A DNA stretch of 64,000 nucleotides, from assembly GCA_951406725.2 (NCBI GenBank), contig OX597815.1, forward strand, positions 156,798,001-156,862,000, in the 5' to 3' direction. The translations under genes were made by a program, and so were the position numbers. The notes under the pieces are model-generated. The model did no database searches. It was not told where the DNA came from and was given only the letters and a program-made list of their open reading frames with translations. Source of the stretch: Octopus vulgaris. Its lineage: Eukaryota. This document shows positions 6,764 to 6,910 of this stretch, one piece after another. Numbering within the stretch: position 1 is the first letter of the stretch; each line of letters begins with the position of its first letter.

Positions 6764-6910
6764 CAATTGCAGCGTGGAAGGTGTTTATAAGCCATTTAAG
6801 AAACACACAAAAGCCGTTCGATTCACTCCAACATTTAAGTTTAATTTGTCAAAATATTTTCGTCGGTAAAATCCGCGACCTGTTCACTGACAAAGTCCGT
6901 GCTGCATCTC
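6764..6910 (-). mobile_element. ~147-bp hammerhead-bearing repeat, copy 1
   Basis: Same start (caattgcagc) and end (gctgcatctc) as 21399-21547; imperfect 11-bp terminal inverted repeat; embedded in (TA)n. Confidence 0.85.
6845..6894 (-). ncRNA. Variant type I hammerhead motif with G3-C8 core (GUGAACA)
   Basis: Minus strand: TTTGTCA-GTGAACA-G-GTCG cggattttac CGAC-GAAA-ATAT-T-T-TGACAAA; 7-bp stem I, palindromic AATATT stem III. Confidence 0.65.

What the first reader, a model, noticed from the sequence alone, without database searches (positions are those of the whole stretch)
6764..6910. Short repeat family with a hammerhead whose C3-G8 core pair is swapped to G3-C8
Seen: on the minus strand, a 7-bp stem I (TTTGTCA/TGACAAA), a stem II, GAAA and a palindromic AATATT stem III have minimal type I hammerhead geometry, but the core is GUGAACA rather than CUGANGA. 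Established: positions 3 and 8 form a Watson-Crick tertiary pair, compensatory swaps can keep activity, and Penelope-like elements carry minimal hammerheads with palindromic stem III. Inference: this is an interspersed family built on a non-canonical ribozyme that CUGANGA pattern searches would miss. Caveat: the cleavage triplet would be UUU, a weak one.
Basis: partly seen in the sequence, partly recalled or inferred. Interest (0 to 1): 0.8.

Follow-up and report, generated by a model that had tools for sequence, protein, structure and literature searches.

The report
Penelope retrotransposon hammerhead with swapped core
This 147-base repeat is a terminal piece of a Penelope-like retrotransposon with thousands of genomic copies; it carries a hammerhead-ribozyme motif whose normally fixed C3-G8 core pair is reversed to G3-C8, while sister families use C-G or U-A there, so the catalytic fold is likely under selection, although self-cleavage itself is untested.

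Summary
It is the pseudo-LTR of a young Penelope-like element (PLE); long copies join it to an RT plus GIY-YIG ORF. The GTGAACA core is the family state: 6,616 exact 18-mer copies. Related PLE families in the same genome carry the homologous motif with C3-G8 or U3-A8, and stem II also changes on both sides. That is natural covariation of the hammerhead's tertiary pair across three Watson-Crick types. Natural U3-A8 is published and engineered G3-C8 partly rescues cleavage; I found no natural G3-C8 report, but four relevant papers were unavailable. Against an active enzyme: none of 100 copies starts at the predicted cut. Instead 42 start 53-62 nt upstream, often with an extra G that looks cap-derived, so integrated templates were uncleaved. 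This window copy has a private stem II change that likely misfolds it. Verdict: new variant of a known kind; cleavage likely slow, dimer- or protein-assisted, untested.

The parts
6764..6910 (-). Short PLE insertion (pseudo-LTR piece, no tail), young subfamily, flanked by (TA)n on both sides
   Evidence: joined to 3'UTR and ORF in long copies
6909..6910 (-). Inferred transcription start (A at 6909) preceded by a G (6910) that the upstream UTR does not template, likely cap-derived
   Evidence: 42 of 100 copies start within unit positions -2..7; G precedes AGATG in 22 of 32 free 5' ends, whereas all 10 copies with the UTR continuing have T or C there
6888..6894 (-). Hammerhead stem I, 5' arm (7 bp with 6851-6845)
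   Evidence: sequence; fold
6881..6887 (-). Core positions 3-9, GTGAACA (G3 = 6887, C8 = 6882)
   Evidence: 91 of 91 young rows; G3 36 of 38 and C8 34 of 38 old rows; 6,616 exact 18-mers
6880..6880 (-). Extra nucleotide between A9 and G10.1
   Evidence: G is the commonest base here in the related families too; an extra nucleotide is a described PLE trait (PMC4209133)
6862..6879 (-). Stem-loop II (5 bp in the family; 4 bp here because of a private change at 6866)
6852..6861 (-). G12-A13-A14-A15.1, palindromic stem III region AATATT, U17; predicted cut between 6852 and 6851
   Evidence: sequence; cut position inferred from hammerhead numbering, not observed
6845..6851 (-). Hammerhead stem I, 3' arm
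   Evidence: sequence
6764..6795 (-). First codons of the PLE ORF (ATG at 6795-6793)
   Evidence: in tandem-junction copies L133, L134 and L162 this ATG opens the RT-EN frame
21399..21547 (-). Second copy, older subfamily, also G3-C8

Best explanation
The unit is the pseudo-LTR of a young Penelope-like retrotransposon, and it holds a hammerhead motif whose 3-8 pair is G-C where sister families have C-G or U-A, which likely means a slow, dimer- or protein-assisted self-cleaving fold is being kept by selection. Shown: long copies run RT-EN ORF, about 1 kb of 3'UTR, the unit, and then the next ORF start; copies sit in (TA)n, often as inverted pairs, and end at one of two points about 57 nt apart. 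Inferred: transcription starts at about 6909, the hammerhead lies in the 5' leader ahead of the AUG, reverse transcription starts inside the first ~35 or ~92 nt of the ORF, and running to the capped end gives the 147- or 205-nt copies. Predicted: in tandem transcripts two motifs pair through AAUAUU and cut after U17, releasing unit-length RNA. U17 would suit G3 because C17 would pair with G3 and trap it. This particular copy would likely misfold.
For: ORF link: 1,025-aa open frame; GIY-YIG E 1.7e-5. PLE termini: inverted partner in 17 of 29 loci, with the tail on exactly one arm in 17 of 17 (two of these loci are the same site); 3' ends 41 short and 59 tailed of 100. Covariation: family B C3-G8 with A9C (60 rows), family C T3 34 of 34 and A8 34 of 34, E C3-G8 27 of 29, D 5 of 7. 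On 14 hand-picked rows, 95.2% of 84 cells pair, 4 of 6 pairs change on both sides, 0 of 500 shuffles reach the score, and slid registers fall to 0.16 or less from 0.45. The ORF tree puts U3-A8 and G3-C8 on separate branches. Literature: C3G/G8C partly rescues a PLE hammerhead that needs its protein (PMC11167929); the C3-G17 trap, and G3-C8 doing better without C17 (PMC3884650, stated there as data not shown).
Against: 0 of 100 copies begin at the predicted cut, 1 within 2 nt, so integrated cDNAs came from uncleaved RNA. Nearest-neighbour energy does not favour the double hammerhead (-27.2 kcal/mol against -29.4 for two monomers and -31.3 for the best cofold), and G3 pairs with U17 in the monomer MFE. 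Core deviations are common in this genome's PLE motifs (A9C fixed in active family B; U4C and A6U seen), which fits relaxed catalysis. Cleavage was not needed for insertion in vitro (PMC11167929). The count rests on about eight related lineages and one G3-C8 origin, rows were chosen by hand, and stems I and III were read by eye only.
Confidence: 0.7

Rival explanations
1. The motif keeps the hammerhead shape, including the 3-8 pair, but no longer cleaves at a useful rate; it serves as a folded signal in the 5' leader (protein binding, template choice or translation control).
For: No 5' ends at the cut site and a cap-like G on copies that contain the whole motif; A9C fixed in family B, which has intact 1,311-aa tandem copies; cleavage dispensable in vitro (PMC11167929); Naiad PLEs thrive without canonical hammerheads (PMC8557442).
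Against: U4, G5, A6, A13, A14 are unchanged in all 14 aligned rows, and the 3-8 pair is described as a feature of the active conformation (PMC3884650). A circular template, or decay of cut RNA, would also leave no 5'-end trace.
Confidence: 0.22
2. A decayed hammerhead: two independent neutral changes became fixed in a successful lineage and restored complementarity by chance.
For: Only one G3-C8 lineage was found. Going from C-G to G-C needs a mismatched step. G3-G8 copies exist (232).
Against: Both non-canonical lineages found (G-C and U-A) land on Watson-Crick pairs; the rest of the core and both stems are intact; the state persists through old and young subfamilies.
Confidence: 0.06
3. The short unit is a non-autonomous element of its own (retrozyme, SINE or MITE) that spreads through its own RNA circle or by DNA transposition.
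For: Most copies are short (83 of 100 lack long upstream UTR); some tailed copies are bounded by a 6-8 bp inverted repeat in TA runs.
Against: Short copies are 98-99% identical to the termini of ORF-bearing copies, end inside the ORF at two fixed points, and occur singly or head-to-head; no head-to-tail arrays of the short unit were seen in the loci examined.
Confidence: 0.02

Closest known systems
Minimal type I hammerheads of metazoan Penelope-like elements (Cervera and De la Pena 2014, PMC4209133)
   Same: Lies in the pseudo-LTR; extra nucleotide between 9 and 10.1; G10.1-C11.1; palindromic, nearly absent stem III; mostly single truncated copies plus opposite-strand pairs; U17 common.
   Different: Core is GUGANCA. 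None of the 56 motifs in their Fig. S3 has G3 (53 C3-G8, 2 U3-A8, 1 U3-G8, my count from the text). Stem I is 7 bp against their usual 4-5; the extra base is G against their consensus H.
Natural U3-A8 hammerheads (PMC3088659; Schistosoma Cercyon PLE in PMC4209133)
   Same: A compensatory change of the same tertiary pair; family C here is another case.
   Different: G3-C8 swaps purine and pyrimidine (two transversions) and puts a pyrimidine at position 8, whose 2'-OH is the proposed general acid (PMC6155905).
Anolis PAc (Poseidon) PLE, Frangieh et al. 2024 (PMC11167929)
   Same: Two reverse-transcription start points inside the ORF start that define an optional tail; AT-rich targets; no RNA ends seen at the cut; engineered C3G/G8C partly active.
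   Different: There G3-C8 is a laboratory mutant. Here the hammerhead lies wholly upstream of the AUG, the tail is about 57 nt rather than 30-40, and the ORF has a Cys linker of the Neptune/Nematis type.
Neptune/Nematis-clade EN+ PLEs (as described in PMC8557442)
   Same: C-terminal GIY-YIG with two Cys between GIY and YIG, a Cys-rich linker between RT and EN, microsatellite targeting.
   Different: Clade not placed by a tree with named references.
Animal non-LTR retrozymes (bioRxiv 10.64898/2026.07.22.740005)
   Same: Type I hammerhead, PLE pseudo-LTR origin.
   Different: Those are head-to-tail tandem arrays without coding capacity; this unit is dispersed or inverted and contiguous with an ORF.

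Membership tests
EN+ Penelope-like element | Single ORF with RT and C-terminal GIY-YIG endonuclease | tested here: met
   1,025-aa frame with YVDD and DKSG motifs; Pfam GIY-YIG at 900-990, E 1.7e-5; Pfam gave no RT family hit at E 0.1, so the RT call rests on motifs and on homologues named as RT-domain proteins
EN+ Penelope-like element | Pseudo-LTRs formed by partial tandem insertion | tested here: met
   L134 (UTR, unit, ORF start) and L162 (unit, ORF, UTR, unit)
EN+ Penelope-like element | Inverted 5'-truncated copy and optional tail on one end | tested here: met
   17 of 29 loci inverted, tail on one arm in 17 of 17; two 3' end points
Neptune/Nematis clade | Cys-rich linker between RT and EN; microsatellite targeting | tested here: met
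   CxxxCxxC upstream of the GIY motif; (TA)n flanks
Neptune/Nematis clade | RT phylogeny with named reference elements | not tested
   no named reference sequences were at hand; the tree used unnamed homologues
Type I minimal hammerhead | Stems I and II around the core in type I order, with GAAA and NUH | tested here: met
   stem II covariation
Type I minimal hammerhead | Literal CUGANGA core | tested here: not met
   GUGAACA is the family state
Type I minimal hammerhead | Watson-Crick pair between positions 3 and 8 | tested here: met
   G-C here; C-G and U-A in related families
Type I minimal hammerhead | Palindromic stem III allowing dimer formation | tested here: inconclusive
   palindrome present, and palindromic in families C and D but imperfect in B and E; computed dimer not favoured over two monomers
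Type I minimal hammerhead | Site-specific self-cleavage after position 17 | not testable with these tools
   needs an assay; the indirect genomic test found 0 of 100 5' ends at the cut
Non-LTR retrozyme | Head-to-tail tandem non-coding units, each with a hammerhead | tested here: not met
   copies single or head-to-head and contiguous with an ORF

The most novel reading that the evidence does not exclude
A naturally evolved, catalytically active G3-C8 hammerhead that has been carried through successive bursts of an autonomous retrotransposon, within one clade that has sampled three Watson-Crick pairs at the catalytic 3-8 contact. It would sit between cap and AUG and cut only tandem transcripts, showing that PLE hammerhead catalysis is under selection and that CUGANGA screens miss whole high-copy ribozyme families.
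Probability: 0.45. Interest if true: 0.7.

Novelty: new variant of a known kind. Interest (0 to 1): 0.55.

Why it matters
The role of hammerheads in PLEs is open: they cleave poorly in vitro, were dispensable for insertion in the one reconstituted system, and have been suggested to be passengers (PMC4209133, PMC11167929, PMC8557442). Three different Watson-Crick pairs at a tertiary contact of the active site, in related families of one genome, is the kind of evidence expected if the active fold is selected. The families give a ready natural panel (C-G, U-A, G-C, A9C) for one assay. The result also shows that PLEs scored as lacking hammerheads by CUGANGA descriptors may hold swapped ones. The 5'-end data separately suggest that abundant short PLE pieces are full copies of the capped leader, not random truncations.

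Tried and rejected
Rfam: no hammerhead hit on the unit, but none on a canonical relative either; uninformative. Surviving G3-G8 ancestor: 232 G3-G8 copies exceed the roughly 18 expected from other C/G swaps, but they form no clade (20 changes for 20 tips, shuffled mean 17.9), share no linked site, and their ratio to T8 is about the same in young (32 to 21) and older copies (9 to 6 in the first 100 of 315 rows); not supported as an intermediate, left unexplained. The 8 C3-G8 matches to the family 18-mer are other, diverged families, not revertants. Spliced 5' exon as the cause of the 5' hot spot: a branch-point-like ACTAAC and TTAG precede it, but no shared upstream exon was found in 102 flanks; a cap-derived G fits better, and templating from the tail end explains a few. 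Cleavage footprint in genomic 5' ends: none. RNA evidence: no RNA holder listed on record; only contigs could be laid, which cannot show ends. One search used a mis-indexed stem II and is superseded; one search had one wrong coordinate and is superseded. Earlier scan findings: none returned. Literature on natural G3-C8: searches found none; the octopus search found nothing on this point.

Full report
Observation. One extra G lies between A9 and stem II. The unit is flanked by (TA)n. A relaxed type I descriptor gave 2 hits in the window (this one and a weak one) and 0 in 10 resamplings. Folding z-scores are modest, -1.5 and -2.2. Rfam has no hit but also misses a canonical relative.

It is a family, and G3-C8 is the family state. 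The host genome is 2.8 Gb; it is probably an octopus, inferred because a protein named from Octopus vulgaris matches genomic copies at 99-100%. A second copy lies at 21399-21547. The core 18-mer has 6,616 exact matches and its reversed control 0; 2,208 matches carry the young loop II. In aligned rows, partly redundant and picked by similarity, the core is GTGAACA in 91 of 91 young rows; old rows have G3 in 36 of 38 and C8 in 34 of 38. Loose-end consensus from runs labelled as three other organisms also reads GTGAACA. The window copy alone among the young rows has C at 6866; its predicted fold slips stem II and buries G12 and A13, so this copy is likely inactive whatever the family does.

What it belongs to. 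Long copies continue upstream through about 1 kb of microsatellite-rich UTR into a GIY-YIG reading frame. One copy has a 1,025-aa open frame with RT motifs, a CxxxCxxC linker and the endonuclease (Pfam reported no RT family). In L133, L134 and L162 the unit runs on into the ORF; its ATG corresponds to 6795-6793. L162 is unit, ORF (one stop, one frameshift), UTR, unit. Of 29 loci with output, 17 have an inverted partner, and in all 17 only one arm has the ~57-nt tail (L026 and L027 are one site). In 100 copies picked by a downstream 28-mer, 41 end near position 148 and 59 near 207. These are the PLE traits described in PMC8557442 and PMC11167929. The linker and (TA)n targets point to the Neptune/Nematis type; I did not place it with named references.

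Covariation. Copies within the family cannot test pairing, so I looked for relatives by protein similarity. Family B (57% identity; intact tandem copies) has the homologous motif with C3-G8 and A9C (60 rows). Family C has T3 in 34 of 34 and A8 in 34 of 34 rows. Family E has C3-G8 in 27 of 29 rows and D in 5 of 7, the others U3-G8; D shares the inner five pairs of stem I with this family. Eight further C3-G8 copies belong to other diverged groups. On 14 hand-picked rows I counted stem II and the 3-8 pair: 95.2% of 84 cells pair, 4 of 6 pairs change on both sides, 0 of 500 shuffles reach the covariation score of 0.45, and slid registers give 0.16 or less. The shuffle ignores relatedness, so this is not a probability. 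By eye, pair 15.2-16.2 is A-U here, G-C in B and E and U-A in D, and the third pair of stem I is U-A here and C-G in B. A tree of ORF N-termini (16 rows, decayed copies read with X at stops) puts this family apart from B/E and C/D (support 85/90) and C beside D (99/97). With C3-G8 the published norm, G-C and U-A are two separate compensated changes. Only one G3-C8 origin was found.

Does it cut? Not shown. In the 100 unbiased copies, 0 begin at the predicted cut (position 60) and 1 within 2 nt; 42 begin at positions -2 to 7. A G precedes the start in 22 of 32 free ends, where the upstream UTR has T or C in 10 of 10 (my sorting of free ends from ends that abut an inverted arm is imperfect). I read this as a cap signature: the short copies would be cDNAs that start inside the ORF and run to the capped end of an uncleaved transcript. 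That matches the Anolis result that unprocessed RNA is the main template (PMC11167929). It does not exclude cleavage of tandem transcripts followed by circularisation, as proposed in PMC4209133, since circles leave no 5' end. Computed energies do not favour the double hammerhead (-27.2 against -29.4 and -31.3 kcal/mol), and G3 wobble-pairs with U17 in the monomer, so help from protein or co-transcriptional folding would be needed, as found for the Anolis motif. U17 may be permissive for G3: G17 is proposed to trap C3, and G3-C8 did better without C17 (PMC3884650, data not shown there). Several relatives with C3 or U3 already have U17.

An intermediate? G3-G8 copies number 232, against 18 C3-C8 and about 18 C-to-G at a control site. 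They are not a clade and track T8 with age, so I do not count them as the ancestral step. The excess is unexplained.

Known versus new. What I saw of each paper: PMC4209133, main text parts 1-3 of 4 and supplement file 2 parts 1-2 of 3 (file 1 not searchable); PMC11167929, parts 1-2 of 4; PMC8557442, passages and Introduction (supplements not read; they list motifs and may bear on novelty); PMC3884650, passages and Introduction; PMC3088659, PMC6765202, PMC8495972 and PMC6155905, passages; bioRxiv 10.64898/2026.07.22.740005, part 1 of 5; PMC11014351, a term search with no hits. Natural U3-A8 is reported in PMC3088659 and PMC4209133. G3-C8 appears only as an engineered rescue (PMC11167929, PMC8495972). 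None of 56 motifs in Fig. S3 of PMC4209133 has G3 (my count). Searches found no natural case. Lunse 2017, Hammann 2012 and Przybilski 2007 were not held. From recall, unchecked, the Seehafer 2011 survey allowed any Watson-Crick pair at 3-8, so scattered natural candidates may already be in print.

Verdict. It works like, and sits where one finds, a PLE minimal hammerhead. It fails the literal CUGANGA test but meets the 3-8 pairing test; catalysis is untested. PLE origin about 0.97, true hammerhead homologue about 0.92, fold under selection about 0.85, cleavage-competent family form about 0.7. New variant of a known kind; interest 0.55.

Noticed in passing
genome-wide, family core position 8 (window 6882): C8-to-G copies (232) are about 13 times more frequent than other C/G swaps in the same 18-mer (18 and about 18). 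In the young subfamily 0 of 32 lie on contigs C1-C8, which hold about 47% of the genome. Cause unknown.
   Followed up: partly
window 6909-6910; L184, L349-L433: Short copies start at one hot spot with an untemplated G (22 of 32 free ends; 2 of 3 in family C), a likely cap signature marking the PLE promoter start.
   Followed up: yes
L134:1269 and L134:1289 (unit positions 94 and 114): Two runs guessed to be RNA show A-to-G at about 20-27% of depth against about 0.1% or less in two other runs; this looks like A-to-I editing of transcribed copies, but the runs are contigs and not on record as RNA.
   Followed up: no
L129:1-9901, L130, L131: Sister PLE family B has intact 1,311-aa ORFs in head-to-tail arrays of about 4.6 kb, with an Asn-rich insert and a fixed A9C hammerhead core.
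   Followed up: partly
L067:131, L136:2627, L023, L175: Other short PLE-like repeats carry hammerhead cores with U4C or A6U; few copies seen, family status not tested.
   Followed up: no
L134:1150-1178: A branch-point-like ACTAAC, pyrimidine run and AG lie just before the inferred start; in Drosophila virilis Penelope an intron ends next to hammerhead stem I (PMC4209133). No spliced copies were found.
   Followed up: partly
L033:2872-4354: Open frame of about 490 aa resembling a non-LTR reverse transcriptase next to a family copy.
   Followed up: no
window 13017-13230, 15879-16092, 1912-2095, 8880-9000: Other interspersed repeats in the window: about 200-bp copies 84% alike in inverted orientation, and a repeat-like stretch after a (TAA)n run. 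Not identified by any search.
   Followed up: no
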